A stretch of DNA of 48,163 bases from Desulfobacteraceae bacterium (lineage in GTDB: Bacteria; Desulfobacterota; Desulfobacteria; Desulfobacterales; UBA11574): NCBI GenBank assembly GCA_030604635.1, contig JAUVVL010000002.1:1-48163 (forward strand), given 5' to 3'. The translations under genes were made by a program, and so were the position numbers. The stretch's first letter is position 1, and each line of letters begins with the position of its first letter. Below are positions 2,887-44,758 of this stretch, piece after piece. Under the pieces are notes generated by a model that saw only the letters and a program-made list of their open reading frames with translations, searched no databases and was not told the origin of the DNA.

Positions 2887-4902
2887 CTATTTCCCATTGC
2901 CAAAAACAATTTCGCCTATCTTGTTCAAATCATCTATTCCCCGCACCTCATGCGGAAACATCGGCACATTTGTTATTGTGCGGGAGGAAAATATTGAATG
3001 GATCTTTTTGATATATCCTGCCTGCTCAACCCTTTTGGAAGAACAAAAATTACAATCAGTCTGCGGAATAACCATGTTAACTATAATGCTGCCGCAATGG
3101 ATCTTTGCATTATCCAAAGCGCTTACAAGCCGCTCCAACTCAAGTAATCCCATGGCCTCGGCAATAGTGACCGCTGCAAAATTCGTTTTATTGTGATCCA
3201 TAAAGGCTTCCTGAATTCTTCTGACATTTTTGGACATGGCTAAAGCCTTTTCAGCGGCCTTAGCCAGCCTGACCACTCCCTTGTATTTCAATAATAATCT
3301 AAAAAATGCATTTAACCATTCCCTGACCATATCGGGAAGCTCTAAAAAGCGAAGAAGGTGGCCGGTAGGCGATGTGTCCAGGACAAAGATGTCAAATTTT
3401 CCTTCCTTTCTCAGGTCCATGATCTTATCCAGGGCCATGATCTCATCGAGGCCAGGGGGTGCAAGGGTTAAAAGCTCCGTCATGACCTCACGGTCGAATT
3501 TTATATCAACCCCGCCGCCAAGAAATTTGTCGAATATCTCTTCTATCTCTTTTTTGAAATCCTGCTTAAAATCTTCAAACAACTTATCCGCATTTATCTC
3601 AAGAGCGTATAGATTGGTCTTTGGGTAGTGAAGATTGAAGATTGAAGATTGAAGATTTTGATGTATCGGTGTAATTTTATCCCCGATGGTCAATTTGAAT
3701 GAATCGGAGAGTGAATGAGCGGGATCTGTGCAGAAGACAAGTATGTTTTTATCCGGGTTACATTGTGCCAGATGAAGGGCGGCGGCTGAAGCAAGGGACG
3801 TCTTGCCTACTCCGCCCTTACCGCCAAAGAGAACAAATTCCAGGTTGGGATCGATAGCTAAATAGGCCTGGACTTCCTCAACACTGACAACAGCCTTAGG
3901 GGATTCATAAGGTTTGGATATTCCCATAAGATAATCCGCCAGACCCTTCAGTTCTTCCACCCCTCGGATTTCATTAGGAAACAATGGAACTTTGATCAAA
4001 CTATATTGAGAAAAACTCTCTTCGATCTCAGACAAAGGCTGTCTCTGATCCTCTTGCTTTGACGCGCAAAATGCACATTCATGAGCATCTGCCACCCTGT
4101 TGACAATAATCTCCGTCACTGGAATATTGTTTTTCTCTAGAGCACTTAACAATCTCTTTGTCTCAGATGTCGCCATGGGCTCAGGAATAGTTACGGGAAC
4201 AAAGCGGGTTGTCTGCTCGTCTGAAAGCAGTTTTTTAACGCTCTCAATATCAGAGGAAAGCTTATCAATGAAAAAATCACACTCATCTTTCACATACTTT
4301 TTGCCGGTAAAATGGACTGACATGAATCTGTGCTTTTGCTGCATTAAGTCCATGAACTCAATCCATTTTAGCATCTGTTCGGGGAGGCTGAGCATGCGCA
4401 CAGTGTGGCCGGTAGGGGCTGTATCAAGTATCAGGATATCATATATCCCCTCTTTCAAAATATTGGCTATCTCGATGACAGCCATGACCTCATCCATCCC
4501 GGGAAGTGAAAGATTAAAAAATTCAGTAATGTCATTCCTATCGAAATATGTTCCCCTGTCTGCAAGTTTCTTGATTACAGCCTCATTTTTCCGTTTAAAC
4601 TCATCCCCCAGCTTGACAGCATCCAACTCGCGGGCGTACAGATTGCGGATTGTTGATTGTTGATTGTTGATTGTTGACCCTCTGTCCTCTGTAACCTTAT
4701 CACCTATCTCGATGCCAAAGCTGTCCCCCAAAGAATGGGCAGGATCGGTCGAAATCACCAAAACTTTTTTGTCGTTTTGAAAAGACCGTGCAAGATGAAC
4801 AGCCGCAGCCGCAGCCATGGTTGTCTTGCCCACCCCGCCTTTTCCGCCAAAAAGGATAAGGCGAAGCTCTTTGTTTTGAAAATATTCGGGAACGTTAGTC
4901 AT
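2887..4902 (-). CDS. Internally duplicated Get3/TRC40/ArsA-family ATPase (two fused halves), copy 1
   Basis: Two deviant P-loops GGKGGVGKTT and GGKGGVGKTS. Each half carries DPAHSL and DTAPTGHT/L. Each half ends with a CxxCxxK/R motif (CAFCASKQ, CNFCSSKR), like the Get3 zinc-bridging CxxC. 671 aa. Confidence 0.9.
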   Translation of the reverse strand: MTNVPEYFQNKELRLILFGGKGGVGKTTMAAAAAVHLARSFQNDKKVLVISTDPAHSLGDSFGIEIGDKVTEDRGSTINNQQSTIRNLYARELDAVKLGDEFKRKNEAVIKKLADRGTYFDRNDITEFFNLSLPGMDEVMAVIEIANILKEGIYDILILDTAPTGHTVRMLSLPEQMLKWIEFMDLMQQKHRFMSVHFTGKKYVKDECDFFIDKLSSDIESVKKLLSDEQTTRFVPVTIPEPMATSETKRLLSALEKNNIPVTEIIVNRVADAHECAFCASKQEDQRQPLSEIEESFSQYSLIKVPLFPNEIRGVEELKGLADYLMGISKPYESPKAVVSVEEVQAYLAIDPNLEFVLFGGKGGVGKTSLASAAALHLAQCNPDKNILVFCTDPAHSLSDSFKLTIGDKITPIHQNLQSSIFNLHYPKTNLYALEINADKLFEDFKQDFKKEIEEIFDKFLGGGVDIKFDREVMTELLTLAPPGLDEIMALDKIMDLRKEGKFDIFVLDTSPTGHLLRFLELPDMVREWLNAFFRLLLKYKGVVRLAKAAEKALAMSKNVRRIQEAFMDHNKTNFAAVTIAEAMGLLELERLVSALDNAKIHCGSIIVNMVIPQTDCNFCSSKRVEQAGYIKKIHSIFSSRTITNVPMFPHEVRGIDDLNKIGEIVFGNGK
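3630..3657. repeat. Heptamer array (GAAGATT x4) inside the Get3-like CDS, encoding QNLQSSIFNL
   Basis: Four exact 7-nt units read through in-frame on the minus strand. It is the same unit as the intergenic CTTCAAT arrays. Confidence 0.9.
4641..4675. repeat. Heptamer array (GATTGTT/GATTGCG x5) inside the Get3-like CDS, encoding STINNQQSTI
   Basis: Five 7-nt units lie at the equivalent loop of the N-terminal half, just before NLYARELD. Confidence 0.85.
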
Positions 4903-4973
4903 TTGTCATTTGTCATTTGTTATTAGTTATTGGTTATTAATTATTGGTTATTAATTATTGGTTATTAATTATT
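4897..4973. repeat. STRR-like heptamer array, 11 units (AGTCATT/TGTCATT/GGTTATT/AATTATT)
   Basis: Exactly 77 nt (11 x 7). It fills the whole spacer between the stop of 4973..5872 and the start codon of 2887..4902. Confidence 0.9.
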
Positions 4974-5872
4974 CACTGGACCTTGGACAATCTTATTTCC
5001 AGCAGATTATTTCTAAGATGAACCTGCTGGCTATCGAAATTTGCTTCACAGGGCAGCTGGATGATTTCCGCCCAGGGGGAGCCGGTTTTTTCGGATTTGA
5101 CCACCAGCTCATCTCCGTGAATTTCCAGTTTTAAATCAGATGCCGCCACCCTTTTTGCTTCCATAATCACCCGGATGTGCGAGCCTTCATCGAATATGTC
5201 CAATAACCGGTCTTTGGTCTCTTTCCTCCATTTTTCCTGCTCTCCCATCAGCCACCAGCTAAATAAAACCTTTTCTCCGGTCTCGTGGTCTGTCCTGGCC
5301 CTTTCAAAAGAGAGAATCGGGCAGCCGACCACTTTCTCTGCGATGGGATTGATCGTCTCCTTAATGTTCAGAAGAACATGCATATGGTTTGGGGCATCGA
5401 TGAGTTTGGCCAGTTGGTCGATCCTGGCGTGACGGTTGTCCCGGAGGTACCACAAAATATCCTGGCCGTCAGGATCGAGTCTGGCAGAAATCTTTTCGAT
5501 AGTTTCCAGATCGATCTTCAAAAGAGAAGCCTGCATGATTATTCTTTTCTGCCAGGTTTCACAATCGTTTACCACGAACCAGATCCTGGAATCCCCTGAG
5601 GCTTTTCCAGCCTTATAAAAAAGACATACGGCTTGTTTTCTCCTTAAAACATAATGGAGTTTTTCTACCTTTAACGCTTTGATATCATTTACCAGGATTT
5701 TAAACCGAATAGTGCGTCCCTGGCAGATCATCAGCCTTTGATTGGTAAGATATAACCCGGCAATCTTCCACCCGGAGCGCAAGCTATCCTTATATGCCCC
5801 CTGGCCTTGGATGATAATATGCTCACCATCTTGAAGGTGGGGGATGCCGGTTTTTTGGAAATCTCTTTGCAT
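4973..5872 (-). CDS. Three-part protein: PH/GRAM-like domain, wHTH-like segment, C-terminal alpha-crystallin (Hsp20-like) domain
   Basis: N-terminal GWKIAGLYLTNQRLMICQG..W motif pattern of GRAM/GLUE-type PH domains. Middle DILWYLRDNRHARIDQLAKLI. C-terminal LLDIFDEGSHIRVIMEAKRVAASDLKLEIHGDELVV..IQLPCEAN..NNLLEIRLSK resembles an ACD. Confidence 0.55.
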   Translation of the reverse strand: MQRDFQKTGIPHLQDGEHIIIQGQGAYKDSLRSGWKIAGLYLTNQRLMICQGRTIRFKILVNDIKALKVEKLHYVLRRKQAVCLFYKAGKASGDSRIWFVVNDCETWQKRIIMQASLLKIDLETIEKISARLDPDGQDILWYLRDNRHARIDQLAKLIDAPNHMHVLLNIKETINPIAEKVVGCPILSFERARTDHETGEKVLFSWWLMGEQEKWRKETKDRLLDIFDEGSHIRVIMEAKRVAASDLKLEIHGDELVVKSEKTGSPWAEIIQLPCEANFDSQQVHLRNNLLEIRLSKVQ

Positions 5873-5906
5873 GGCATTTCACGATTGACTATTGACCACT
5901 GCCAAC

Positions 5907-7670
5907 TTACATCTTCTCCAACAATTTCCTAAGCGCTTCCGTCTTATTTTTGATGAGCCCGCTTTCACCTTGGGCCATGGCCTCTTTTACTTTAAATATG
6001 ACTGACTCAATCTGTCGAAGATAAGAAGTCGACAATTTTCCCTTTTTTTCCTCAACAACCAGTTCAGCCGCACGGATCATGCTGTCGGCCTGGATGTTAA
6101 TCTCCAATGACTCGCGTTTTTTCATATCTTCTTCGGCATGCGCTTCAGCCTCACTGACCGCCTGCTTTACCTGTTCATCCGACAACAGGTATGAAGCATC
6201 GATCTTGATGCCGGTCTGTTTTTCGGTGTGCAGCTCCTGAGCAGAGACTTTCACGATTCCGTTCACATCGATCTTAAAGGAGACCTCCACATGGGCCTTT
6301 CCCCTGGGCAGGGTTGGAATATCGGTCAACTGGAATTGCCCCAGGCTGAAATTGTCTACAGCCATCTCCCGCTCACCCTGGAGGACATGAATATCCATCA
6401 CGGCTTGATTATCCTCGGCGTTGGTAAATATCTGCCCGGCAGATGTGGGTATGGCGGCGTTTCTGTGGATGATCTTTGTAAAAAGACCGCCCTGTGTTTC
6501 AACACCTAATGAAAGCGGGGTTACGTCAACCAGTACAACATCGCTAATCTCTCCGGTCAAAACCCCGGCCTGGACAGCCGCCCCGATTCCCACTACCTCA
6601 TCAGGGTTGATCTTGACATAAGGTTTTTTATTAAAGATTTTTTCCACCAGTTCTCTTACAGACGGCATTCGGGTGGAGCCTCCCACCAACACGATCCGAT
6701 CGATCTCATCCGGAGACAGCCGGGCATCAGATAAGGCCAGCCGTGTAGGGCCGACGAGCTTTTCCCTCAAATCCGAAGTTATCGCTTCAAATGTTTCCCG
6801 ATCAATTGAGACCTCCGGATCTTTTAATTTGCCGTTTTGGGTCCTGCCCGCTCGTGCCCTGTCCGCCTCGCTCCACCCGGCAGGAGGGCAGGCGGGTTTG
6901 ATAAAAGGAAGGGAAATTTTGACACCGGGTTGGCAGGAAAGCTCCCTTTTGGCCTTTTCACAGGCCTCTTTCAAACGCTGTAGTGCGTATTTGTCTGATC
7001 TTATATCAACCCCATGTTCATTTAAAAATTTTTCAGCAAAGTAATCAAGCAGCCTTTGGTCCCAGTCATCGCCGCCAAGCCGGGTGTTGCCGCTGACAGC
7101 TTTGACATGAAAAAAACCGTCTCCCAGCTCCAGGATGGACACGTCAAACGTCCCTCCGCCCAGGTCCCAGACCAGGATCGTTTGAATATCTTCACGATCC
7201 AGCCCATAAGCCAGGGAGGCCGCCGTAGGCTCGTTGATTATCCTTATCACATCAAGGCCGGCTATCCTGCCGGCATCTTTGGTGGCCTGGCGCTGACCGT
7301 CATTGAAATAGGCAGGAACCGTGATAACGGCCTTTTTCACCTCTTCTCCAAGATAGTTCTCAGCGTCTGATTTTATCTTGCGCAAAATAAAGGAGGATAT
7401 CTCCTGGGGGGAATAGCTCCTGCCATTAAGAGAGACTCTGTAGTCGCTGCCAATATGCCTCTTAATGGACATGACCGTCTTTTCGGTATTGGCTGCGGCC
7501 TGGCTTTTGGCTACCGAGCCGACCAGTTTATGCCCCTGGGCTGTTTCCGCAAAAACAGAGGGCGTCAGATTTTCCCCTTCAGCGTTTTTAATCACTTTGG
7601 CCTGCCCATCTTCTATAATGGCTGCCACCGAGTAAGTAGTGCCAAGATCTATGCCGATTGCTTTAGTCAT
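5907..7670 (-). CDS. Atypical Hsp70/DnaK-family chaperone (short lid, extra loop insert)
   Basis: GIDLGTTYSVAA, DLGGGTFDVSIL, VLVGGSTRMP and a substrate-binding beta domain (VDVTPLSLGVET). 587 aa, so the C-terminal lid/tail is shorter than in DnaK. About 18 extra residues follow LPFI. Confidence 0.9.
   Translation of the reverse strand: MTKAIGIDLGTTYSVAAIIEDGQAKVIKNAEGENLTPSVFAETAQGHKLVGSVAKSQAAANTEKTVMSIKRHIGSDYRVSLNGRSYSPQEISSFILRKIKSDAENYLGEEVKKAVITVPAYFNDGQRQATKDAGRIAGLDVIRIINEPTAASLAYGLDREDIQTILVWDLGGGTFDVSILELGDGFFHVKAVSGNTRLGGDDWDQRLLDYFAEKFLNEHGVDIRSDKYALQRLKEACEKAKRELSCQPGVKISLPFIKPACPPAGWSEADRARAGRTQNGKLKDPEVSIDRETFEAITSDLREKLVGPTRLALSDARLSPDEIDRIVLVGGSTRMPSVRELVEKIFNKKPYVKINPDEVVGIGAAVQAGVLTGEISDVVLVDVTPLSLGVETQGGLFTKIIHRNAAIPTSAGQIFTNAEDNQAVMDIHVLQGEREMAVDNFSLGQFQLTDIPTLPRGKAHVEVSFKIDVNGIVKVSAQELHTEKQTGIKIDASYLLSDEQVKQAVSEAEAHAEEDMKKRESLEINIQADSMIRAAELVVEEKKGKLSTSYLRQIESVIFKVKEAMAQGESGLIKNKTEALRKLLEKM
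6834..6899. repeat. GC-rich REP-like segment embedded in-frame in the Hsp70 gene (encodes KPACPPAGWSEADRARAGRTQ)
   Basis: The sense strand cccgcctgccctcctgccgggtggagcgaggcggacagggcacgagcgggcagg closely matches the intergenic element at 43351-43400 and 45080-45130. Confidence 0.7.
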
Positions 7671-8351: not shown

Positions 8352-8389
8352 GAGCTTTCCTCTTATACCCCCTTAAATACAGATCGTAT

Positions 8390-9829: not shown

Positions 9830-10834
9830 TCAGGCGAATGCCGGGCGGGCGAGAGCGTTGCGGGCAGGCACTGCCCCCCGATCGGTTATGATTCGCCTGA
9901 ATATCTGATCCCACTCTTCCAGGGAATCACCCGAAAAAGAAACTAATCTCCTTGTACCGCTACCGGCATAGATAATATCCAGCACCCTTTTTTTCTTTAG
10001 GACGTCACTTAAGTTTCTGTTTTCCATTGCACAAGCAACGAGTTCTCCGATGGGAATTTCAAAGGCAACTTTTTGCTCAAAGTCATACCACCAACAAATT
10101 CTTTTATCGGTAAGATACAGGTGACCGGGTCTCCATGTATTGTCTATAATACCCTCGGTCTCCATCAGATACCACATCTTTCCACTGCAAATGACCTGCT
10201 CTCCAGTGGTTAAGAACTTCGCCGCACTCTCTTCAAAAACAGGAAGCGCAGGATCTTCTTCAGGGACAAGGCCCAGTTCATTCATCCTTTTCTCTATGGC
10301 CTTTTTCAATTGAGACACATCTAAAGCACTCAGCCTTGCGACCTTATTATCTCCCAGAAGCAGAGATAACTCGTCCCTCTCCTTTTTTTCAGTAAAATGT
10401 TCCCCTTTCTTGGTCACCAGACCCCGTATCTTTACCAGGGGAGTCTCAAATAAAACCTTCCCAAAATCTTCATGATAGAGAAACAGCCTCTCGCCGCTAA
10501 GAAAAAAGTAACCGTATCTCCAGGCAGTATATATCCCCTCACTTGAGTAGTATGCCCCTAACATCTTGAGAACGATCTTTTCTCCCTGGGCCAAAGAGCT
10601 TTTTTTCTTGCTCCTGTGTTCCCGTTCCCAGGCCCGTATACGCTCATCCCAGGACTGCATAATCCCATATTTCAGCATGGTCTCCATGCCGGCCAGGGCC
10701 GCGCGCAGGTTAACCCCGATCAAAGGAATGCCCGCAACCGAGACGATAATATCGGCATGGATCACCAGGCCCTTGTCCAGGACCCGGTCAAGAAGATCTA
10801 CCAGAGTTGCGTTAGTGCTGCGTTGTGGTTCCAT
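9830..10834 (-). CDS. gvpJ: GvpJ/GvpA-family domain fused to two PH/GRAM-like domains
   Basis: N-terminal TLVDLLDRVLDKGLVIHADIIVSVAGIPLIGVNLRAALAGMETMLKYG is the gas-vesicle shell fold signature. It is followed by two repeats with WRYGYFFLSGERLFLYHE and WRPGHLYLTDKRICWWYD. The last ~16 aa are read from a REP element. Confidence 0.75.
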   Translation of the reverse strand: MEPQRSTNATLVDLLDRVLDKGLVIHADIIVSVAGIPLIGVNLRAALAGMETMLKYGIMQSWDERIRAWEREHRSKKKSSLAQGEKIVLKMLGAYYSSEGIYTAWRYGYFFLSGERLFLYHEDFGKVLFETPLVKIRGLVTKKGEHFTEKKERDELSLLLGDNKVARLSALDVSQLKKAIEKRMNELGLVPEEDPALPVFEESAAKFLTTGEQVICSGKMWYLMETEGIIDNTWRPGHLYLTDKRICWWYDFEQKVAFEIPIGELVACAMENRNLSDVLKKKRVLDIIYAGSGTRRLVSFSGDSLEEWDQIFRRIITDRGAVPARNALARPAFA

Positions 10835-10854
10835 AATTAGTCATTTGTCATTTG

Positions 10855-11226
10855 TCACTGGTCATTTGTCATTGGTTGCTTTCCTATGGATCTAATGTAT
10901 GCATTCAACATCTTTCCTATCGTCTCAATATCCTGATTCAACGAATCAAATTCATTATTTCTTATCAATTTCCTGTTTTTCCCTTTAGTGAGCCAAGTTT
11001 TGGTCTCATACAATGAACCGCGAGCATAATAACAAAACTGTTTATTTTCTTTATATGAGAAACGACCAAACCCCTCACTTAAATTTGCAGCCACAGAATC
11101 TGCAGATCGAACTAACTGCTTGCCTATTGTGTCCTTAGCGAAATAATTCCACTGAGTTACAATACCCCAAACTTTTTCGCCGAGGGTCATTGCCATTTGA
11201 TAGACTTTCAGATCCTCCAAATTCAT
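10855..11226 (-). CDS. Four-helix-bundle protein (23S rRNA IVS protein family), copy 2
   Basis: Paralog of 9335..9700 (DLKVYQMAMTLGEKVW..FCYYARGSLYETKTWL). Start at ATG 11226. Confidence 0.8.
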   Translation of the reverse strand: MNLEDLKVYQMAMTLGEKVWGIVTQWNYFAKDTIGKQLVRSADSVAANLSEGFGRFSYKENKQFCYYARGSLYETKTWLTKGKNRKLIRNNEFDSLNQDIETIGKMLNAYIRSIGKQPMTNDQ

Positions 11227-11306
11227 GGTCTCCTCCTCATGCCTTCCGTTACCGATGACTAATGACCAATGACTAATGACCAATGACTAATGACCAGTGA
11301 CCACTG

Positions 11307-12071
11307 TTACACAAAACTATAAGGAGGCCAGGGTCCGGTGTAGCGGACGGAAAATCCATCCATAGCATCTATTTTTTCCAGCTCAGTTCCTAGTTCTTTA
11401 CTTCCATCCTTAGTAAGCAAACAAGATAGATTCATGAACATCTGTTTATCTGTGTCTTCTGTTTTTTTGGTCTTTTCCACGCGGAGATCATCCACATAGG
11501 GCTTGATTTTCGCATAGAACTCATTAAAGTATTGGTCTGCCTTATCTTCCATCTCTTTTTTTAAGATTCCCTCCAGTTTTTGCCTGTACATATAGGCCAG
11601 TCCTCTTGGCTTTGATTTGATTTCTTCGTTTAACTTTTTGATTTCAACACTTTCTTCGGCAAGGTTCTGAGCCATTACTTCCGAATCCCAGAAGATCTGA
11701 ACTCCATATTCAGCCTTATTGCCAACCTTTTCAATTTTTGTTTTAAAACTGTCATAGTCCCGCTTTAAGCAATTCTTCATATTCTCTTCAGGGCTGGTAA
11801 GCCCGTCACCCAGAATGATGGTATCAAAACCAAAAGGAAGCACGGTGCCAAATTTTTCCCAGGCAATATCAACCACCTTTTGATGTGTGCTTACCCAGCC
11901 CTTTAATATTTCTTCATTTTCCGACTGGTACAGCTCAGCATGACAATTATGGACTACAGCACTTAAATCTTTGTAAGGAACTGTATAGACACTATTGCCT
12001 TCTATGCCGATCCTGCCCAGATTAACGCTTTCGTTGCCCTTTACAATGCAGTAAAGATATCTACCGTTCAT
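11307..12071 (-). CDS. gvpF: GvpL/GvpF-family gas vesicle protein
   Basis: N-terminal GRYLYCIV..GIEGNSVYTVPYKDLSAVV and C-terminal YTGPWPPYSFV are hallmarks of GvpF/L. Confidence 0.9.
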   Translation of the reverse strand: MNGRYLYCIVKGNESVNLGRIGIEGNSVYTVPYKDLSAVVHNCHAELYQSENEEILKGWVSTHQKVVDIAWEKFGTVLPFGFDTIILGDGLTSPEENMKNCLKRDYDSFKTKIEKVGNKAEYGVQIFWDSEVMAQNLAEESVEIKKLNEEIKSKPRGLAYMYRQKLEGILKKEMEDKADQYFNEFYAKIKPYVDDLRVEKTKKTEDTDKQMFMNLSCLLTKDGSKELGTELEKIDAMDGFSVRYTGPWPPYSFV

Positions 12072-12255
12072 AGGTTCAAGGTTCAGAGGTTCAGAGGTTC
12101 ATGGTTGAATAAATAATGCTTAATAATCAATGGGTAACAATTAATAATTAACAATTGATTATTGATTATTAGATTGGGGTTCAGGTTCAGTGATCATTAG
12201 GCATTATCTAAATATTTATTCCTCAAATCTTCAATCTTCAATCTTCAATCTTCAA
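12072..12255. repeat. Composite STRR-like heptamer block (AGGTTCA, ATTGATT, CTTCAAT units)
   Basis: aggttcaaggttcagaggttcagaggttca .. attgattattgattatt .. cttcaatcttcaatcttcaatcttcaat fills the gvpF-gvpK spacer. Confidence 0.85.
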
Positions 12256-12558
12256 TTATCCATCCCACCTTTCAGGATTAATCATTTTGTCTAACAGCTC
12301 ATCTACGATATTATCCAGACCGTCTCTTACAGATTTAACCGACTCACTTATTCCCTGTTCTTTCTTTATCTCCTCGATCGCTGTGTCCAGATCCATCAGG
12401 GCTCGCCCCAACCTGTCAATCTCTTCTTCGGTAAGACTTCCCCCTTCCATTCTTTTTAGAGCCTGAAGCCTGAGGGCCTCCTTGATGATCTCCACCAGGG
12501 CTATAACTAATCCCAGGACCCCGTGTTTAAGATTTTTCTCGTCAATATCTATTGGCAT
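12256..12558 (-). CDS. gvpK: Gas vesicle protein GvpK
   Basis: GVLGLVIALVEIIKEALRLQALKRMEGGSLTEEEIDRLGRALMDLDTAIEEI matches the conserved GvpK core. The start overlaps the upstream gene by 10 nt. Confidence 0.85.
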   Translation of the reverse strand: MPIDIDEKNLKHGVLGLVIALVEIIKEALRLQALKRMEGGSLTEEEIDRLGRALMDLDTAIEEIKKEQGISESVKSVRDGLDNIVDELLDKMINPERWDG

Positions 12559-12956
12559 TTTCTAAAGTGTCCATTGGTCGTTGTATATATACGGCCTGAT
12601 GCTTTATATCCACAACTGAAGCAACCGCTATTATCGAATTCATCTCTTATTACTTGCCTTCCACAATGAGGGCAATGTATTCTATATAAACCGGTATTTC
12701 CCTTTGTGCCGTGACTACCCACCTGTCCTTGCTGATGATGCACGGATTGAGTCCCTGCCTGCTCCAGATCTTCTTCTGTTCCCTGCCAACCGCATAAATA
12801 GCAGCCCTTGTTCATCAACTCCTTTTTGACTACTCGCCTCCCGCAAGCAGGACACATCACCCAATAAGGGCTTCCATCTTTTCTTTCCGCTTCGTCTTTG
12901 ACTTCGTTTAAAACTTTTTGTACAATAGGGCCAAAAACCATATCTCCTGCTTTCAC
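12549..12956 (-). CDS. Double zinc-ribbon protein
   Basis: Two copies of CPxCGRxV-x8-GCxxCGW/Y (CPACGRRVVKKELMNKGCYLCGW; CPHCGRQVIRDEFDNSGCFSCGY). The same module ends the adjacent GvpJ-like protein. Confidence 0.6.
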   Translation of the reverse strand: MKAGDMVFGPIVQKVLNEVKDEAERKDGSPYWVMCPACGRRVVKKELMNKGCYLCGWQGTEEDLEQAGTQSVHHQQGQVGSHGTKGNTGLYRIHCPHCGRQVIRDEFDNSGCFSCGYKASGRIYTTTNGHFRKCQ

Positions 12957-13031
12957 CTTTCCTTTTTCAGCTTTACATCATGCATCCCATGCCCGCCCTG
13001 GCGGAAATGACCAATGACCAGTGACCACTGA

Positions 13032-13391
13032 CTAATGACCACTGACAACTTCTTGAGCCTTTGCCTTGGCACTGATCCACCCGCACCAGTGGCAGCCGGT
13101 GGTTATAAGATCCTCCACGGGAACCCTCTTATCACATTGAGGACAGTTTTCCTTGGCGATCAGAGCATCTTTCCAGGCTGCTGTCTCATAATTGGTTCCT
13201 GAAGGAAATTCCAAACCGTATTTGGCTGCTGTCTCAAAGGATGACAGGGCAGCCCTGATCTTGATGCCCAGCAGTTCGACTCCGGCCACAGATACAGTAA
13301 TGTCTGCGTTAATCACAAGTCCCTTGTCCAGTATCCTGTCTATTACGTCAGCTAAACCGCCACCACCATTTCGAGATGGTTCTATAGTCAT
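13032..13391 (-). CDS. gvpJ: GvpJ/GvpM/GvpA-family protein with C-terminal zinc ribbon
   Basis: GLADVIDRILDKGLVINADITVSVAGVELLGIKIRAALSSFETAAKYGL followed by CPQCDKRVPVEDLITTGCHWCGW. Confidence 0.85.
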   Translation of the reverse strand: MTIEPSRNGGGGLADVIDRILDKGLVINADITVSVAGVELLGIKIRAALSSFETAAKYGLEFPSGTNYETAAWKDALIAKENCPQCDKRVPVEDLITTGCHWCGWISAKAKAQEVVSGH

Positions 13392-17338: not shown

Positions 17339-17782
17339 CTATTTCCGAGCGACTCTGGTAACCCCTTTTCCTCCGCATGTAACACAGGGCAAAATGGAGT
17401 TTATTCGGGCCTTTCCACTTCCATCACAATCCTTGCAAGTCTCTCTGGATCCCGGGACCGTAACCCTGCCTTTTCCTCCACATACACTGCATGAAAGCCA
17501 TTCCTGACCATAATGCCGGCCAGCTCCCTCACAATAGGCACATTCTATGGAGGGCTCTTTGACGGTGACGAAACCCTTTCCCGCACATGTAGTACATGTA
17601 ATCCTCTGGCCAGGATGTTCACCAGTTCCTTCACAAAAGGGACAATCGAATGCGGGCTCAGAAGCCTTTATCATCCCCTTTCCTCCGCATACCTGACATT
17701 TAGATAGTGGAGACAGAATCCCGAAAGGATCCAATCCCTCGCCATTACAGTAAGCACATTTCTTTTCAGTAAACATGGCCAT
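17339..17782 (-). CDS. Stand-alone DnaJ-type zinc-finger protein, 8 CxxCxGxG repeats
   Basis: CAYCNGEG, CQVCGGKG, CPFCEGTG, CTTCAGKG, CAYCEGAG, CSVCGGKG, CKDCDGSG, CVTCGGKG. No J-domain. Confidence 0.85.
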   Translation of the reverse strand: MAMFTEKKCAYCNGEGLDPFGILSPLSKCQVCGGKGMIKASEPAFDCPFCEGTGEHPGQRITCTTCAGKGFVTVKEPSIECAYCEGAGRHYGQEWLSCSVCGGKGRVTVPGSRETCKDCDGSGKARINSILPCVTCGGKGVTRVARK

Positions 17783-18621: not shown

Positions 18622-18921
18622 TCAATCTTTTGTTTCCTTTTCTGCCTCTTCTTCCGGTCTTACATGGACTACCCCTTTGCCATGGCAGTTCCAGCAAAAG
18701 AGCTTGCTTCTGTAATAAACGCCGGTGCCCTCACAAGCGGGGCAGGTCTCATAAGGTTTTATGACATAAACGGTCTTATGGCCGTTGCAAACCGGGCAGT
18801 TTGAAAGAGGAGATAAGAGTTTAAATGGGTCTTTACCCTTCCCCTTGCAAAATACACAGGGAATTTTCTCCATCTCAGGCAAGATCGTTTCCGCGGACTT
18901 TTTTCTTCGCCTCTTAACCAT
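18622..18921 (-). CDS. Stand-alone DnaJ-type zinc-finger protein, 4 repeats
   Basis: CVFCKGKG, CPVCNGHK, CPACEGTG, CWNCHGKG. Confidence 0.8.
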   Translation of the reverse strand: MVKRRRKKSAETILPEMEKIPCVFCKGKGKDPFKLLSPLSNCPVCNGHKTVYVIKPYETCPACEGTGVYYRSKLFCWNCHGKGVVHVRPEEEAEKETKD

Positions 18922-22925: not shown

Positions 22926-23519
22926 CTAAGTTAGGGTAACCTCCAGGATTCCGTTGTTATATATTTTCCTGATTATATTCTTAGAACCGTGAGGCAATTT
23001 AACGTTCTTGTAATAGCTTAAATTTCCCCGGCTTGCCGATATGATCAATGTGTCTTCATTTAAATCAAGCCTGATATCCTTTTCATTAACGCCGGGCAAT
23101 TCAGCAATCACACGCAGCTTATTCTCTTCCTCAAATATATCAACGGGGACATCTCTTTCACCTTTATCCATTGGGACATCTCCTGCCGTAAAAGTATCAA
23201 AATGCTTTTTAGGTCTTGTACCCCGGCGAGCAACAGATGGGGGGATGCCACTGGGAGGACGGCTTCGATGTCTTGTCAATCCGCCGGATATTTCTGCATC
23301 TGCCCCTTTTAATGGTGTTTCTTTTAATTTCCGGTCAATCTCCTCATCTATTGAATCAAGTCTTTCCATAAATGCATCAGACTTCTTCAATCCCTTTATA
23401 AGCCCGCCGAGTCCCGGTATAAGATCACCCATGCTGTCCAGGACGCTTTCGGCTACACCGCCGGAATCTTCCCCTGCCTTCTCCTTTTCAGAGTTTTCTT
23501 TGTCTTTTTCCTTTTTCAT
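22926..23519 (-). CDS. Hsp20/alpha-crystallin protein (GvpH-like), copy 1
   Basis: ACD: PVDIFEEENKLRVIAELPGVNEKDIRLDLNEDTLIISA..NGILEVTL. Gly-rich N-terminal segment GDLIPGLGGLIKGLKK shared with 39414..39971. Confidence 0.8.
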   Translation of the reverse strand: MKKEKDKENSEKEKAGEDSGGVAESVLDSMGDLIPGLGGLIKGLKKSDAFMERLDSIDEEIDRKLKETPLKGADAEISGGLTRHRSRPPSGIPPSVARRGTRPKKHFDTFTAGDVPMDKGERDVPVDIFEEENKLRVIAELPGVNEKDIRLDLNEDTLIISASRGNLSYYKNVKLPHGSKNIIRKIYNNGILEVTLT

Positions 23520-23826: not shown

Positions 23827-24243
23827 TCAATTTACCCCCGGCCTCTCCGGCGCTGACCTTTGACGAACGATACCCTGACCATTACATCTGAGACAATGCT
23901 GCCTGTAGGAACCAAGATAAAGCCCGGTACCATTGCAATCGGGACATTCTACTGATGTCTCAATGGCCGTCACCCAGCCTTTGCCCTTGCAGGCCGTGCA
24001 GTGAAGCCGGTCAGTGGTATGAGGTTGTACGCCGCTGCCTTTGCAAAAGGCACATTTCACAACAGGTCCCCTTATTCTCACTTCCCCTTTGCCCTTACAT
24101 ACCTGACAGGCTGATAAATGGGAAAGTACTCCAAATGGGTCCCTGCCGGTTCCATTACAAAAGGCACACGTAACCGATACCATGTCTGCCATGAGCTTTT
24201 CGAGCTCTTCGGGACTGGTTGTTTTACCTCTTCTTCTGGCCAT
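23827..24243 (-). CDS. Stand-alone DnaJ-type zinc-finger protein, 6 repeats
   Basis: CAFCNGTG, CQVCKGKG, CAFCKGSG, CTACKGKG, CPDCNGTG, CLRCNGQG. Start at ATG 24243 (MARRRGK). Confidence 0.85.
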   Translation of the reverse strand: MARRRGKTTSPEELEKLMADMVSVTCAFCNGTGRDPFGVLSHLSACQVCKGKGEVRIRGPVVKCAFCKGSGVQPHTTDRLHCTACKGKGWVTAIETSVECPDCNGTGLYLGSYRQHCLRCNGQGIVRQRSAPERPGVN

Positions 24244-24257
24244 TTTGCACCTCCCTC

Positions 24258-24464
24258 TCAACCCGTTTCTCTCATTCCAGCCAACCTCGTTCCACAGGAG
24301 GGACAGAATTTGCGGTCCTCCTTATAATAATAGCGCCACGTTTCTAAGCACTCAGGACATTCCATGTTGAGTGACTGGCCACATTCTGTACAAAACTCTA
24401 GATGTCCCCAGGTAGTGGTGCCACACCTTGGGCATTTAAACGCGCCTTTTGGATCTCCACCCAT
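24258..24464 (-). CDS. Double zinc-ribbon protein
   Basis: CPRCG..CTECG and CPEC..CPSCG pairs in 68 aa. Confidence 0.6.
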   Translation of the reverse strand: MGGDPKGAFKCPRCGTTTWGHLEFCTECGQSLNMECPECLETWRYYYKEDRKFCPSCGTRLAGMRETG

Positions 24465-28314: not shown

Positions 28315-29256
28315 TCACTGGACCTTATGCTTTTCCAATGCCTTCTTTCCTTTGCCAGCCAGCAGGATCCTTCCGTTGAGCAGCATGTCTAAAAAATCCT
28401 TCTTAGCCATTGCTCCGGTAATCTTCTGTACCTGATCTACAGGAATACGAGACCTGGCACTAAGATCGGCGATGGTCGATTCTCCTTCTTCCACAAGGCC
28501 CAGCAAAAGCACCTGTTGGGAGGTCACTTTTTCAAGCTCAACCGCTTCGTCTTTGGCGAAAAGCGTCTCACATTCCGGCGTAAGCACATAAATACCCCGT
28601 GCCACCTTTTCGAGATAGCCTTTTTTGATCATGGATTCGCAGACAAAGGCCACATAGTCGGAAGTCAAACCCAGTCTTCTTGCAATCTGGGTCTTGCCGG
28701 CCTCTTTCATGTCGTAAACCACTCTTCCAATATCGCCGGCCGTTCCGCTGGGACGGCCAAAAAATTTTTTCGCACCATGTTTCACGTTGACCACCCCCCT
28801 GCCCTTGCACCCACTGCAGTAAAGGTTCGAGTTATCTAATTCGCGACCCCGGCCCCGGCACTGAGGACACGGTTCTATAGGCTCCTCCACCGCTATTACG
28901 CCGGCTCCCTTACAGGCCAGACAGGTCACATCGCTGCCCACCTTGTCTTCACCAGTACCCCGGCAAAAACCACAGACAATCGCTGTTCCTGTCTTGATAT
29001 GAACCTCTCCTTTGCCTTTACAAACAGGGCAGACCATCGCTCCCTTCCGGCTTCCGGTACCTGAACAAAAACCGCATTCCTGCGAGTCCCCCCTCAATAT
29101 CGTCTTTTCGGGCAGCCTTTGCCCACCTCTGGCCCTGCCTGGCCCTGCCTTTACAGGGCTCCATATGAGCCCTTCCTGCTGACCTGAACCAGCCTCCCTG
29201 TATCTCAGTCTATTTGTTGCTGTGCCCGATTTATTTGCTGTCTGCCAGTCTCCCAT
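28315..29256 (-). CDS. DnaJ-type zinc-finger (6 repeats) fused to two wHTH domains
   Basis: CGFCSGTG, CPVCKGKG, CGFCRGTG, CLACKGAG, CPQCRGRG, CSGCKGRG. These are followed by KTQIARRLGLTSDYVAFVCESMIKKGYLEK and a second wHTH, STIADLSARSRIPVDQVQKITGAMAKKDFL. ATG 29256 has a GGAGG RBS; the upstream part of the track ORF lies in a palindromic repeat. Confidence 0.8.
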   Translation of the reverse strand: MGDWQTANKSGTATNRLRYREAGSGQQEGLIWSPVKAGPGRARGGQRLPEKTILRGDSQECGFCSGTGSRKGAMVCPVCKGKGEVHIKTGTAIVCGFCRGTGEDKVGSDVTCLACKGAGVIAVEEPIEPCPQCRGRGRELDNSNLYCSGCKGRGVVNVKHGAKKFFGRPSGTAGDIGRVVYDMKEAGKTQIARRLGLTSDYVAFVCESMIKKGYLEKVARGIYVLTPECETLFAKDEAVELEKVTSQQVLLLGLVEEGESTIADLSARSRIPVDQVQKITGAMAKKDFLDMLLNGRILLAGKGKKALEKHKVQ

Positions 29257-29326
29257 TCCAGTTCCTCCCTCTAAATTAGCCAAAAGTAAAAATGGAAATT
29301 CCTGTACCAACAAGTTATTATTAATT

Positions 29327-29402
29327 CTTAGCCACAGACACACACGGACGAACAGAGACTTTCATTATCTTGTCTGTGCCTGTCTGTGTGGGTCTGTGGC
29401 TG
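29327..29402. repeat. Imperfect palindrome built of CAGACAC-type heptamers
   Basis: agccacagacacacacggacgaacagagac ..loop.. gtctgtgcctgtctgtgtgggtctgtggct. Confidence 0.6.
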
Positions 29403-34082: not shown

Positions 34083-34579
34083 ACTCCCCCTCCTTTTACT
34101 GTCACCACTCCTTTTCCCCTGCACTCGACGCAGGGGAGCTTGCTGTGAGAATCTACCGCCCGCCCTTTGCATCTGCGGCACTGCTCCAGGGGTTCTCTGA
34201 CCGGCACCACACCCTTTCCTCGACAGACCACGCAGGTGATGTTGGTGCGGGGGCGTTCCTCGCCCCGGCCCTTGCAAAAAACGCAAATCATGGCAGGGGG
34301 GGTAACCGAAACCAGACCTTTGCCCCGGCACACAGGGCACGTACTTCCCCTGGGCTTTTCGCCGGAGCCCTGGCAGAACGCACACGGATAAGTTTCTTTA
34401 CGGAGTATCCCCCTGATCTGCTGACCCATTAGGCCCGGATCGTACTGCTCACCAATCTCTTTTACGTCAACCGGCTCCCAGAGCAAACCGCTGTCATGAA
34501 ACCGCGCTTCGCCGTCCCTCTGGTTTTCCGCCTTTTTCAGGTTATGCGAAGGTGTTACATATTCAAATTCCAAAGTCAT
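34079..34579 (-). CDS. Stand-alone DnaJ-type zinc-finger protein, 6 repeats (paralog of the N-terminal half of 28315..29256)
   Basis: CAFCQGSG, CPVCRGKG, CVFCKGRG, CVVCRGKG, CRRCKGRA (degenerate), CVECRGKG. Shared N-terminal motif GLLWEPV / GLIWSPV. ATG 34579 has a GGGAGGA RBS. Confidence 0.8.
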   Translation of the reverse strand: MTLEFEYVTPSHNLKKAENQRDGEARFHDSGLLWEPVDVKEIGEQYDPGLMGQQIRGILRKETYPCAFCQGSGEKPRGSTCPVCRGKGLVSVTPPAMICVFCKGRGEERPRTNITCVVCRGKGVVPVREPLEQCRRCKGRAVDSHSKLPCVECRGKGVVTVKGGGV

Positions 34580-34794
34580 TCCTCCCGTTACCACAATAAT
34601 CCACGGACTTTTTTGACAGGCCCGCCCTGGCGCGACGTAAGAAACTTTGTTTAGGTTTAGCTATTAATCATTAGATTCCGGATATCGATAGCCGCTGCTC
34701 TTTTAACCAGGTCTGGGCCAGGGATTAACTGGATTTATTACCCGGCAGGCAGGTCTTATATCCTGATCATCTTGTACATCCTGTCATTTAAGTT

Positions 34795-44551: not shown

Positions 44552-44758
44552 CTAAGCGGCCTCGGGTAATAGTCCAACGGCCTCAGCGTATTTCAAGAAA
44601 GTCTCAACGCCAGCTATGACGATCCTGGCCTCAATAGCTAAAAGCTCAATGCCGACCAGGGAAATCCTGACCCATGCATCGACCACAACGCCCTTGTCGA
44701 GAATTCTATCGACAACCTCTACCAAACTTGAAGATGCTATTGCTTTTTCTACTGCCAT
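44552..44758 (-). CDS. gvpA: Major gas vesicle structural protein GvpA
   Basis: [63 protein letters not shown] is near-canonical GvpA. GGGGAGGTG RBS. Confidence 0.97.

What the first reader, a model, noticed from the sequence alone, without database searches (positions are those of the whole stretch)
5907..7670. Orphan atypical Hsp70 inside the gvp cluster, without a canonical DnaJ or GrpE neighbour
Seen: a complete nucleotide-binding domain and beta-sandwich substrate-binding domain, but a short C-terminal lid (587 aa total). No grpE or full-length dnaJ is present in the window. Instead, the J-domain sits on a GvpF/L protein and the DnaJ Cys-rich domain occurs as six separate proteins. Inference: this looks like a DnaJ disassembled into parts, with the J-domain on an assembly factor and the zinc-finger holdase modules as free proteins, servicing one specialised Hsp70.
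Basis: partly seen in the sequence, partly recalled or inferred. Interest (0 to 1): 0.65.

Follow-up and report, generated by a model that had tools for sequence, protein, structure and literature searches.

The report
Dedicated Hsp70 chaperone for gas vesicles
This gene encodes a specialised Hsp70 chaperone that travels with gas-vesicle gene clusters, always alongside an assembly factor carrying the J-domain that switches Hsp70s on, so these bacteria appear to have a private chaperone machine for building gas vesicles.

Summary
The ORF at 5907-7670 (-) is a real, intact Hsp70 of 587 aa inside a ~44 kb gvp cluster. The window has no grpE and no full dnaJ. One GvpF/L protein carries a C-terminal J-domain with an invariant HPD motif, and six separate proteins carry CxxCxGxG repeats.

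Only the disordered C-terminal tail and a ~24-residue segment of NBD subdomain IB are missing.

This is not a housekeeping DnaK. It belongs to a clade with 100/100 bootstrap support, and every member with enough flank sits in a gvp cluster: 20 further loci, including more distant subclades at 46-54% identity. The GvpF/L::J fusion is present in 13 of 13 loci where its position is in view. An Hsp20-type gene nearly always follows the Hsp70.

The isolate Desulfoluna spongiiphila DBB has the same cluster and also a separate 635-aa DnaK next to GrpE.

The "disassembled DnaJ" idea is only half right. The J-domain/Hsp70 pairing is strongly supported. The zinc-finger proteins are absent from several Hsp70-bearing clusters, and no DnaJ C-terminal domain exists anywhere in the window.

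Best reading: a client-tethered J-protein/Hsp70 pair, comparable to HscB/HscA, that handles aggregation-prone GvpA-family proteins. I found no published description.

The parts
5907..7670 (-). gvp-linked Hsp70 (587 aa). It has an NBD, linker, SBD-beta and a full helical lid. It lacks the C-terminal tail and the subdomain-IB segment, and carries a private 18-aa insertion in IIB.
   Evidence: Pfam HSP70 E 1.8e-199. NCBIfam PRK00290 scores 745.9 (above cutoff 648), but TIGR02350 scores 729 (below cutoff 822). Alignment; AlphaFold model; clade 100/100.
35972..36994 (-). GvpF/L assembly factor with a C-terminal J-domain (J-domain at about 36053-36208; HPD at residues 288-290). Proposed co-chaperone of the Hsp70.
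   Evidence: PF06386 plus PF00226. HPD invariant in 59 homologs. AlphaFold/Foldseek: N-terminal part matches GvpF structures 6L5D/4QSG at E ~1e-11; C-terminal part superposes at 1.1 A on the DnaJ J-domain of 5NRO. Present in 13/13 Hsp70 loci where its position is in view.
4973..5872 (-). Hsp20-like protein (299 aa) directly downstream of the Hsp70. N-terminal GRAM/PH-like domain, a middle region, and a C-terminal alpha-crystallin-like domain.
   Evidence: NCBIfam archaeal Hsp20 E 2.5e-10 over residues 213-298, below the family cutoff. BLASTP to the cluster Hsp20 at 39414 gives E 5e-8; the N-terminus matches the GvpA-fusion repeats at E 7e-6. An ortholog lies downstream of the Hsp70 in nearly all loci.
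2887..4902 (-). Tandem-domain ArsA/Get3-like ATPase that follows the Hsp20-like gene.
   Evidence: PF02374 twice, E 3.1e-146. The order Hsp70 / Hsp20-like / ArsA is conserved in L001-L003, L101, L116, L132 and L177. ArsA and Hsp20 genes in gvp clusters were already reported (PMC2963123).
7740..9324 (-). Response regulator (7740-8351) and histidine kinase (8536-9324) directly upstream of the Hsp70.
   Evidence: Pfam. Conserved in core-clade loci and overlapping the Hsp70 start in L083/L084. Absent from the outer-clade loci L089, L092, L093, L116, L177 and L178.
9830..13391 (-). Conserved gvp block upstream of the Hsp70: GvpA-domain protein with two GRAM-like repeats (9830-10834), GvpF/L (11307-12071), GvpK (12256-12558), a zinc-ribbon protein (12549-12956), and a GvpJ-like protein (13032-13391).
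   Evidence: Pfam. The same order is seen in all related loci.
37138..39264 (-). CDC48-type double AAA+ ATPase directly upstream of GvpF/L::J.
   Evidence: CDC48_N plus two AAA domains. Adjacent to the J-fusion in L002, L082, L084, L094, L095, L101, L116 and L177.
17339..17782 (-). Free DnaJ-type zinc-finger protein with 8 CxxCxGxG motifs.
   Evidence: PF00684 E 4.3e-16; motif count.
18622..18921 (-). Free zinc-finger protein with 3 CxxCxGxG motifs plus 1 CxxC.
   Evidence: PF00684.
23827..24261 (-). Free zinc-finger protein with 6 motifs.
   Evidence: PF00684.
28315..29343 (-). Zinc-finger protein (6 motifs) fused to winged-helix-like domains.
   Evidence: PF00684 plus weak wHTH hits.
34079..34594 (-). 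Zinc-finger protein with 5 motifs. This is the copy conserved between GvpO and GvpJ in core-clade relatives.
   Evidence: PF00684. Orthologs in L002, L082, L084, L098-L103 and L132.
41597..41950 (-). Free zinc-finger protein with 6 motifs.
   Evidence: PF00684.
22926..23519 (-). Hsp20-type protein.
   Evidence: PF00011, marginal; conserved in relatives.
39414..39971 (-). Hsp20-type protein.
   Evidence: PF00011, marginal. Orthologs sit next to the Hsp70 in L092 and L093.
44552..44758 (-). GvpA, the major shell protein and a likely client class.
   Evidence: PF00741 E 1.9e-16.

Best explanation
This is a dedicated Hsp70/J-protein pair for gas-vesicle biogenesis.

The Hsp70 is an old paralog that is inherited with the gvp cluster, not the cell's housekeeping DnaK. 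Its activating J-domain is fused to a GvpF/L assembly factor. In haloarchaea, GvpF/L proteins bind hydrophobic GvpA-family proteins.

Proposed cycle (inferred):
1. GvpF/L::J binds a GvpA/J/M-type client or the nascent vesicle nucleus.
2. Its HPD loop docks on ATP-bound Hsp70 at the NBD/linker interface and triggers ATP hydrolysis.
3. The Hsp70 clamps onto an exposed hydrophobic segment of the client at that site. This keeps the client from aggregating, or strips assembly factors so that the subunit can enter the growing shell.
4. The Hsp20-type protein encoded next door holds clients, and the ArsA/Get3-like and CDC48-type ATPases act in the same pathway.
5. Nucleotide exchange is either spontaneous or uses the cell's own GrpE.

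Shown: the identity and integrity of both proteins, clade-wide gene linkage, and a separate housekeeping DnaK/GrpE in one carrier genome.

Inferred: the physical pairing, the identity of the client, and the direction of action (assembly rather than disassembly).
For: 1. The Hsp70 is intact, with catalytic, linker and J-contact residues conserved across the clade.
2. The clade is monophyletic at 100/100. Members are >=67% identical to the window protein (BLAST identity) and no sampled non-gvp-linked Hsp70 exceeds 55%. With more sampling a continuum of subclades at 46-62% appears, and every one checked is gvp-linked.
3. All 20 related loci with at least ~1.5 kb of upstream flank are gvp clusters. 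This includes subclades at 46-54% identity (L089, L092, L093, L116, L177, L178), two of which have a different gene order, which argues for selection on the linkage itself.
4. None of these loci has grpE or a full dnaJ. Of 145 non-gvp Hsp70 loci, 78 have grpE and 76 have dnaJ within 10 kb.
5. GvpF/L::J is present in 13/13 loci where its position is visible. HPD is invariant in 59 homologs. At least 118 of the top 120 homologs keep both domains. The J-domain model superposes at 1.1 A on the DnaJ J-domain of the DnaK complex 5NRO.
6. Canonical Desulfobacterota DnaKs (L015, L016, L023, L036) have the subdomain-IB segment and a long tail. The gvp clade has neither, so it is not a recent copy of the host DnaK.
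7. The complete genome of Desulfoluna spongiiphila DBB carries the cluster, and its proteome lists a 635-aa DnaK beside GrpE plus a DnaJ.
8. GvpF and GvpL bind the GvpA-like protein GvpM in Halobacterium (PMC6107691).
Against: - There is no experimental evidence of any kind.
- No RNA reads were found in the one small same-sample metatranscriptome, and no gas-vesicle proteins appear in the Desulfoluna proteome files, so expression is unproven.
- Gene linkage does not show which J-protein actually drives this Hsp70. The cell's DnaJ could also do so.
- Monophyly of all gvp-linked subclades together is weak in my neighbour-joining tree: 91/100 for 42 sequences, but only 28-30/100 for the widest grouping.
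- Most gas-vesicle producers (cyanobacteria, haloarchaea, Bacillus, Serratia) make vesicles without such an Hsp70, so at best it is an accessory factor.
Confidence: 0.7

Rival explanations
1. GET-like relay. The Hsp70 is the first station of a hand-off chain for very hydrophobic GvpA-family subunits. It captures them, passes them through the Hsp20-like or TPR proteins to the tandem ArsA/Get3-like ATPase, and that ATPase delivers them to the growing shell. This would parallel the way eukaryotic Hsp70 feeds tail-anchored proteins to Get3.
For: The order Hsp70 / Hsp20-like / ArsA is conserved. In L178 the ArsA gene ends 2 bp before the Hsp70 start, and the downstream protein hits the Pfam family ArsA_HSP20. 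The window also holds two TPR proteins and a second ArsA. Each ArsA half has a CxxC motif (sequence), as Get3 does (my own knowledge).
Against: The Hsp70 has no C-terminal tail or EEVD-type motif for a TPR protein to bind. ArsA is found in gvp clusters of cyanobacteria and Chlorobi that are not reported to have an Hsp70 (PMC2963123). Nothing here tests a hand-off.
Confidence: 0.15
2. Remodelling or disassembly rather than assembly. The J-domain on the scaffold protein recruits the Hsp70 to strip GvpF/L and other assembly factors from finished vesicles, or to clear collapsed shells together with the CDC48-type unfoldase. This would parallel auxilin/Hsc70 uncoating of clathrin.
For: CDC48 sits directly next to GvpF/L::J in most loci. 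A J-domain fused to a lattice-binding protein is the auxilin design (my own knowledge).
Against: This cannot be separated from the main model with sequence data alone. The adjacent Hsp20-type holdase fits aggregation control better than uncoating.
Confidence: 0.1
3. It is simply the organism's housekeeping DnaK, or a generic stress paralog, that happens to lie near gvp genes.
For: NCBI names relatives 'molecular chaperone DnaK', and the protein passes one DnaK model (PRK00290: 745.9 against cutoff 648).
Against: It fails TIGR02350 (729 against cutoff 822). Gvp linkage holds across the whole clade in 20 loci. No grpE or dnaJ lies nearby. It lacks the tail and the IB segment that host-lineage DnaKs have. 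Desulfoluna has a separate DnaK/GrpE.
Confidence: 0.03

Closest known systems
HscA/HscB with IscU (Fe-S cluster assembly Hsp70 system)
   Same: A specialised bacterial Hsp70 encoded inside the operon of the pathway it serves. It is driven by a class-C J-protein whose non-J part binds the client, and it works without a dedicated GrpE. Position 436 of the central pocket is Met in both.
   Different: Not an HscA: it scores 551-557 bits on the HscA models against cutoffs of 620-709, is 40% identical to E. coli HscA, lacks the IB segment that HscA has, and sits in a gvp context rather than an isc context. Here the J-domain is fused to GvpF/L instead of an HscB-type helical domain.
HscC with DjlB/DjlC (E. 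coli)
   Same: A short Hsp70 (556 aa) that also lacks the IB segment and the C-terminal tail. It is encoded next to its own J-proteins.
   Different: Only 33% identical, and the two do not group together in the tree. The HscC partners are membrane-anchored J-proteins and its client is unknown (my own knowledge).
Housekeeping DnaK/DnaJ/GrpE
   Same: The same domain plan, with catalytic, linker and J-contact residues conserved. The best solved match is Geobacillus DnaK 2V7Y at E 4.5e-186.
   Different: 49% identity to E. coli DnaK. No tail, no grpE or dnaJ neighbours, and 19 clade-specific substitutions including S427T, T428N and V436M in the substrate-binding domain. It always lies in gvp clusters.
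Auxilin/Hsc70 (clathrin uncoating)
   Same: A J-domain fused to a protein that binds a self-assembling protein lattice, so that Hsp70 is recruited to one place (my own knowledge).
   Different: A eukaryotic system that uses the general Hsc70 rather than a dedicated paralog. There is no homology outside the J-domain.
Free DnaJ-like zinc-finger assembly factors (plant BSD2, PSA2, LQY1; Bacillus anti-TRAP)
   Same: Small stand-alone proteins made of CxxCxGxG repeats. The Pfam DnaJ_CXXCXGXG and Anti-TRAP models hit all six window proteins. Several of the plant proteins act as Hsp70-independent holdases in complex assembly (my own knowledge).
   Different: The window proteins have 6-8 repeats instead of 2-4. 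Some are fused to winged-helix-like domains. Their function is untested.
Known gas-vesicle accessory factors (GvpN, GvpF/L, GvpG/J/K/M/O, Hsp20, ArsA)
   Same: All of these are present here. ArsA and Hsp20 genes in gvp clusters were reported in 2010 (PMC2963123).
   Different: None of the gas-vesicle papers I could search mentions an Hsp70 or a J-domain fused to GvpF/L.

Membership tests
Hsp70 superfamily (PF00012) | Actin-like nucleotide-binding domain with catalytic residues (D8, K70, E171, D194/D201, T199) | tested here: met
   The alignment to E. coli DnaK shows all of them conserved, and they are invariant or nearly so in 59 clade members.
Hsp70 superfamily (PF00012) | Hydrophobic interdomain linker, beta-sandwich substrate-binding domain and helical lid | tested here: met
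   Linker DVVLVDVTPLSLG. The Pfam match runs over positions 1-592 of 599. AlphaFold predicts lid helices 498-586 at pLDDT 83-90; the SBD-beta is predicted with low confidence.
Housekeeping DnaK (NCBIfam equivalogs) | Score above the curated cutoff | tested here: inconclusive
   PRK00290: 745.9, above cutoff 648. TIGR02350: 729.4, below cutoff 822.55.
Housekeeping DnaK (NCBIfam equivalogs) | Encoded with grpE and/or dnaJ | tested here: not met
   No GrpE or DnaJ C-terminal domain in six frames of the window. None in the 21 gvp-linked loci, against 78 and 76 of 145 other Hsp70 loci.
Housekeeping DnaK (NCBIfam equivalogs) | Shares the indel state and C-terminal tail of the host lineage's DnaK | tested here: not met
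   The gvp clade lacks the IB segment and has a tail of 0-1 residues. Desulfobacterota DnaKs (L015, L016, L023, L036) have the segment, and the median tail in canonical DnaKs is 46 residues.
Housekeeping DnaK (NCBIfam equivalogs) | Is the only Hsp70 of the genome | tested here: not met
   Not testable for the window's own organism, which comes from a sediment metagenome. In Desulfoluna spongiiphila DBB the gvp-linked Hsp70 (598 aa) coexists with DBB_33050 DnaK (635 aa) and DBB_33040 GrpE.
HscA | Score above the curated cutoff; isc operon context | tested here: not met
   TIGR01991: 550.9, below 708.55. PRK05183: 556.5, below 620. There are no isc genes in the window.
HscC | Groups with HscC in a tree | tested here: not met
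   33% identity. HscC stays outside the gvp clade. The only shared feature is the missing IB segment and tail.
Class C (type III) J-domain protein: GvpF/L::J | J-domain fold with an HPD loop | tested here: met
   PF00226 E 6.6e-15. HPD invariant. 1.1 A rmsd over 54 residues to 5NRO_B.
Class C (type III) J-domain protein: GvpF/L::J | No G/F region, zinc finger or DnaJ C-terminal domain in the same chain; a different client-binding module instead | tested here: met
   The rest of the chain is a GvpF fold (6L5D/4QSG, E ~1e-11). E. coli DnaJ matches this gene only over DnaJ residues 9-59.
Class C (type III) J-domain protein: GvpF/L::J | Stimulates the ATPase of its Hsp70 partner | not testable with these tools
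   Needs biochemistry. Only co-occurrence (13/13) supports the pairing.
   No match to DnaJ residues 220-376. No PF01556 in any ORF.
   No ORF with >=3 CxxCxGxG motifs in L083, L089, L091, L092, L093 or L116, although these loci carry the Hsp70.
Small heat-shock protein (alpha-crystallin domain): downstream gene 4973-5872 | Alpha-crystallin domain above the family threshold | tested here: inconclusive
   NCBIfam Hsp20: 40.2 bits against cutoff 140, E 2.5e-10. No Pfam hit. BLASTP E 5e-8 to the cluster Hsp20 at 39414.

The most novel reading that the evidence does not exclude
Gas-vesicle clusters of Desulfobacterota and related lineages encode a complete private proteostasis line. It would consist of a dedicated Hsp70 fired by a J-domain on the nucleation factor GvpF/L, an Hsp20-type holdase, a Get3-like ArsA, a CDC48 unfoldase and zinc-finger holdases. 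Together they would relay amyloid-like GvpA-family subunits from the ribosome to a gas/water interface. This would be a prokaryotic, membrane-free analogue of the eukaryotic Hsp70-to-Get3 targeting relay, and the first Hsp70 system known to be dedicated to building a protein-shelled organelle.
Probability: 0.2. Interest if true: 0.85.

Novelty: new variant of a known kind. Interest (0 to 1): 0.68.

Why it matters
How the very hydrophobic, aggregation-prone GvpA reaches the growing shell is an open question in gas-vesicle biology. It is also the practical bottleneck in using gvp clusters as acoustic reporter genes, because most clusters fail or are toxic in E. coli (PMC10344784, PMC12848028).

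A conserved Hsp70/J-protein pair wired directly to GvpF/L gives a concrete, testable handle. It predicts which proteins touch the client and offers a short list of helper genes to co-express.

It also adds a new client system to the short list of pathway-dedicated bacterial Hsp70s (HscA, HscC).

A cultured, fully sequenced carrier, Desulfoluna spongiiphila DBB, makes experiments possible.

Tried and rejected
1. The 50%-identity representative library collapsed the core clade into broader clusters. It gave no clean clade listing, but it did supply the outgroups and the distant members P0127, P0137 and P0140.
2. I looked for the window organism's own housekeeping dnaK. The window comes from a marine-sediment metagenome. 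Laying that run's contigs on a Thermodesulfobacteriota dnaK at 80% likeness recovered only the gvp-Hsp70 contig at the organism's ~100x depth. This is too insensitive at the DNA level to mean anything.
3. Expression: the same-sample metatranscriptome (33 M letters) has nothing on window 2800-22000, which is uninformative.
4. The promoter/terminator scan of 1-12500 was not above the shuffled controls.
5. L094 and L095, found through the J-fusion, end before the expected Hsp70 position, so they neither support nor contradict co-occurrence.
6. P0130 first looked like a clade neighbour. It has the IB segment and drops out once more sequences are added.
7. A regulatory role tied to the adjacent kinase/regulator pair was considered as the primary function and set aside, because that pair is absent from all outer-clade loci.
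Full report
**What is in the window.** Almost every gene lies on the minus strand. From about 2.9 kb to 46.6 kb the window is one very large gas-vesicle (gvp) cluster. Pfam and NCBIfam scans of about 60 ORFs identify:
- GvpA (44552-44758)
- two further GvpA-domain proteins (13032-13391, and 9830-10834, which carries two GRAM-like repeats)
- three GvpF/L (11307, 24633, 35972)
- GvpK, two GvpG and GvpO
- two GvpN
- a CDC48-type double AAA+ ATPase (37138-39264)
- two tandem-domain ArsA-like ATPases (2887-4902, 19927-21960)
- three Hsp20-type proteins (4973, 22926, 39414)
- two B12-binding radical SAM enzymes
- several two-component and sigma-54 regulators
- six CxxCxGxG proteins
- the Hsp70 at 5907-7670

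**Check of the observation.** The ORF is as described: 587 aa, Pfam HSP70 E 1.8e-199 over residues 4-586.

Aligned with E. coli DnaK, which I fetched from NC_000913.3, the catalytic residues, the J-contact residues R167/N170/T173, the hydrophobic linker and the beta-sandwich are all present. They are invariant or nearly so in 59 clade members.

A six-frame tblastn of the window with E. coli GrpE finds nothing better than E 0.059. E. coli DnaJ matches only through its J-domain, at 36053-36205, and its zinc-finger region, at the six CxxCxGxG genes. Its C-terminal client-binding domains match nothing.

The GvpF/L at 35972-36994 carries PF00226 at residues 263-314, with HPD at residue 288. The six zinc-finger proteins have 8, 3, 6, 6, 5 and 6 strict CxxCxGxG motifs.

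One detail needs correcting. The lid is not short. The protein ends at E. coli position ~600, the end of the helical lid, and AlphaFold predicts three lid helices (498-541, 548-567, 570-586) at pLDDT 83-90. Three things make the length differ from DnaK:
- loss of the ~40-residue disordered tail
- absence of a ~24-residue segment of subdomain IB (E. coli 79-102)
- a private 18-residue insertion (PACPPAGWSEADRARAGR) in subdomain IIB, which is modelled as disordered; by length it is shared only with the 93%-identical P0001, and I did not compare the insert itself

**It is a clade, and the clade lives in gvp clusters.** The protein search returned more than 120 sequences at 67-93% identity. Nearly all are 569 aa, and the named ones are called DnaK in Desulfobacterales, Syntrophaceae and similar MAGs.

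In a neighbour-joining tree (177 sequences, later 195; 569 columns; E. coli DnaK, HscA and HscC as references), the 32-33 sequences at 69% identity or more over the trimmed alignment form a clade in 100 of 100 bootstraps. In the first sample the next best protein is at most 55% identical. Identity to E. coli DnaK, HscA and HscC is 49%, 40% and 33%.

I then looked at genomic context through three independent routes: species-representative genomes, metagenome contigs and exact-protein look-ups. I scored each locus with tblastn using the window's own proteins.

Every locus with at least ~1.5 kb of upstream flank is a gvp cluster: L001-L003, L082-L085, L091, L097-L099, L101-L103 and L132. Only three very short contigs (L100, L104, L105) show no gvp gene.

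The core gene order is CDC48 / GvpF/L::J / (unknown 222 aa) / GvpF/L / GvpG / GvpO / (zinc finger) / Hsp20 / GvpJ-like / GvpK / GvpF/L / GvpA-fusion / kinase / regulator / Hsp70 / Hsp20-like / ArsA.

**The link goes deeper than the core clade.** The nearest outgroups in the tree were tested as predictions, and all of them sit in gvp clusters too:
- P0127 (L089/L090)
- P0140 (L092)
- P0137 (L093, with a different gene order)
- L116 (52% identity)
- P0413 (L177)
- P0417 (L178, again a different order, with ArsA ending 2 bp before the Hsp70)

When the L116 protein is used as the query, its best hits outside its own subclade are the core gvp clade rather than ordinary DnaKs.

Bootstrap support is 91/100 for a 42-sequence grouping. 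It is only 28-30/100 for the widest one, so a single origin is likely but not shown.

By contrast, 145 Hsp70 loci without gvp genes are ordinary DnaKs of 606-660 aa. Of these, 78 have grpE and 76 have dnaJ within 10 kb. None of the gvp-linked loci has either.

**It is not the host's own DnaK.** Canonical DnaKs of Desulfobacterota in my sample (L015, L016, L023, L036) carry the IB segment and a long tail. The gvp clade has neither, and in this resembles Firmicutes and Actinobacteria DnaKs and HscC. The best solved match is Geobacillus DnaK 2V7Y. From my own knowledge, this IB indel is the classic Hsp70 signature that separates monoderm and archaeal DnaKs from those of Gram-negative bacteria. 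The paralog is therefore old or came in with the cluster. It is not a recent duplicate.

The window's organism is known only from a sediment metagenome, so its genome could not be checked. However, the complete chromosome of the isolate Desulfoluna spongiiphila DBB (LR701292.1) carries the full arrangement, with a 598-aa Hsp70. The proteome tables of the paper describing that strain list DBB_33050, "chaperone dnak", at 635 aa, next to DBB_33040 GrpE, plus a DnaJ (PMC7031245).

**The J-domain partner.** GvpF/L::J is itself a large family. At least 118 of the top 120 homologs keep both Pfam domains. H288-P289-D290 is invariant in a 59-sequence alignment.

The AlphaFold model (pLDDT 80) has an N-terminal part that matches the GvpF crystal structures 6L5D and 4QSG (E ~1e-11). 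Its C-terminal J-domain superposes at 1.1 A over 54 residues on the DnaJ J-domain bound to DnaK in 5NRO.

The fusion is present in all 13 Hsp70 loci where its expected position is in view: the window, L002, L082, L084, L093, L098, L099, L101, L102, L116, L132, L177 and L178. L103, L094 and L095 are cut just short of one partner or the other.

In Halobacterium, GvpF and GvpL bind the GvpA-like protein GvpM (PMC6107691). A J-domain on this scaffold would therefore bring Hsp70 to the client.

**The other parts.**
- An Hsp20-type gene lies directly downstream of the Hsp70 in nearly all loci. In L003 and L101 a few genes have been inserted between them.
- In the window this gene encodes a 299-aa protein. 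Its N-terminus is homologous to the GRAM-like repeats of the GvpA-fusion protein, and its C-terminus is homologous to the cluster's Hsp20.
- A tandem ArsA usually follows. ArsA and Hsp20 in gvp clusters were described in 2010 (PMC2963123).
- ORFs with three or more CxxCxGxG motifs are found in most core-clade loci. They are absent from L083 and L091 and from the more distant loci I scanned (L089, L092, L093, L116) (L177 and L178 were not scanned).
- The kinase/regulator pair upstream of the Hsp70 is likewise confined to the core clade.
- The conserved set is therefore Hsp70, GvpF/L::J and an Hsp20-type protein, usually with ArsA and CDC48.

**Mechanism.** The best-supported reading is a client-tethered J-protein/Hsp70 pair, as in HscB/HscA. 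GvpF/L::J binds a GvpA-family client or the vesicle nucleus and fires the dedicated Hsp70 on the spot. The Hsp20-type protein acts as a holdase.

The clade has its own substitutions in the substrate-binding domain (S427T, T428N, V436M; position 404 is mostly Glu or Gln). This is compatible with a narrowed client range but proves nothing.

Nucleotide exchange may be spontaneous or may use the cell's GrpE. All of these steps are inference from anatomy and linkage.

The rival readings are a GET-like hand-off to ArsA, an uncoating or clearing role with CDC48, and a plain housekeeping DnaK. The last is effectively excluded.

**Novelty.** Full-text searches found no paper that describes an Hsp70 or a J-domain fusion in a gvp cluster. 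The searches combined "gas vesicle" with Hsp70, DnaK, DnaJ, J-domain, GvpF, ArsA, Hsp20 and CDC48. The library is incomplete, so this is absence of evidence only. NCBI labels these proteins DnaK, "Hsp70 family protein" or "GvpL/GvpF family". I class the finding as a new variant of a known kind: a pathway-dedicated Hsp70 with a class C J-protein.

**Limits.**
- The trees are neighbour-joining on simple distances.
- Expression is unproven.
- Nothing here is experimental.

Noticed in passing
window 14334-15713 and 29507-30895 (-): Two B12-binding radical SAM enzymes (PF02310 plus PF04055) sit inside the gvp cluster. This hints at a post-translational modification step that is not part of the textbook gas-vesicle gene set.
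   Followed up: no
window 42012-43079 (-): A 355-aa protein built from about 10 copies of an 18-aa repeat (AEGPERAKEVADLISEFK; 54 bp x 9.7 copies, 89% match) lies near gvpA. It may be an analogue of GvpC, the repeat protein that stiffens the shell.
   Followed up: partly
window 15798-16592 (-): A Pro/Lys/Tyr-rich repeat protein (YxPxPLKPYKPAPLK..., with 24/48/96-bp periodicity) that ends in a CxxC...CxxC zinc ribbon. It has no Pfam match.
   Followed up: no
window 9830-10834, 4973-5872, 18960-19367 (-): One GRAM/PH-like domain recurs in three contexts: twice after a GvpA domain, once in front of the alpha-crystallin-like domain of the Hsp70's neighbour, and once on its own. It may be a shared docking module that links a shell protein to the chaperone set.
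   Followed up: partly
window 2887-4902 and 19927-21960 (-): Both tandem ArsA-like ATPases carry a CxxC motif in each half (ECAFCASK / TDCNFCSSK; GTCPFCASK / SGCAFCSSK; sequences). This resembles the zinc-binding CxxC of Get3 (my own knowledge) rather than the arsenite-binding cysteines of ArsA.
   Followed up: no
window 9335-9763, 10855-11283 and 19458-19829 (-): Two near-duplicate 23S rRNA intervening-sequence proteins (PF05635), with similar N-terminal ends, flank the GvpA-fusion gene. A PD-(D/E)XK 'GxxExxY' protein sits further along. Relatives have such genes at varying positions (L082, L095, L103), as if small selfish genes had been dropped into the cluster.
   Followed up: no
window 16635-16934, 16959-17189, 23588-23830, 25458-25799, 30928-31248, 31323-31514, 32760-33002 (-): Seven small proteins look like winged-helix domains but have no Pfam match. 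The same domain is fused to a zinc-finger module in 28315-29343 and in relatives (L082, L084). Their role is unknown.
   Followed up: no
window 35888-35976, 43429-43538; also 4915-4973 and 11251-11301: Short intergenic tandem repeats occur in several gaps between cluster genes: CTTCAAT-type units in the first two places, and the 14-bp units ATTGGTTATTAATT and ACCAATGACTAATG in the other two. They may be regulatory or mobile.
   Followed up: no
window 6824-6877 (-), Hsp70 residues ~265-282: There is a private 18-residue insertion in subdomain IIB of the Hsp70. By protein length it is seen only in the window protein and the 93%-identical P0001. It is modelled as disordered, and it lies in the lobe that nucleotide-exchange factors contact in DnaK (the last point is my own knowledge).
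   Followed up: partly
window 2800-22000: The source organism is very abundant in its marine-sediment sample, with a flat contig word depth of ~100x across the cluster. One contig joins 9868 to 19388, suggesting a variant of the cluster that lacks ~9.5 kb.
   Followed up: no
L177 (Desulfoluna spongiiphila DBB, LR701292.1 2310833-2332629): A cultured, fully sequenced sulfate reducer carries the whole Hsp70-bearing gvp cluster. Neither the paper describing the strain nor its proteome tables mention gas vesicles.
   Followed up: partly
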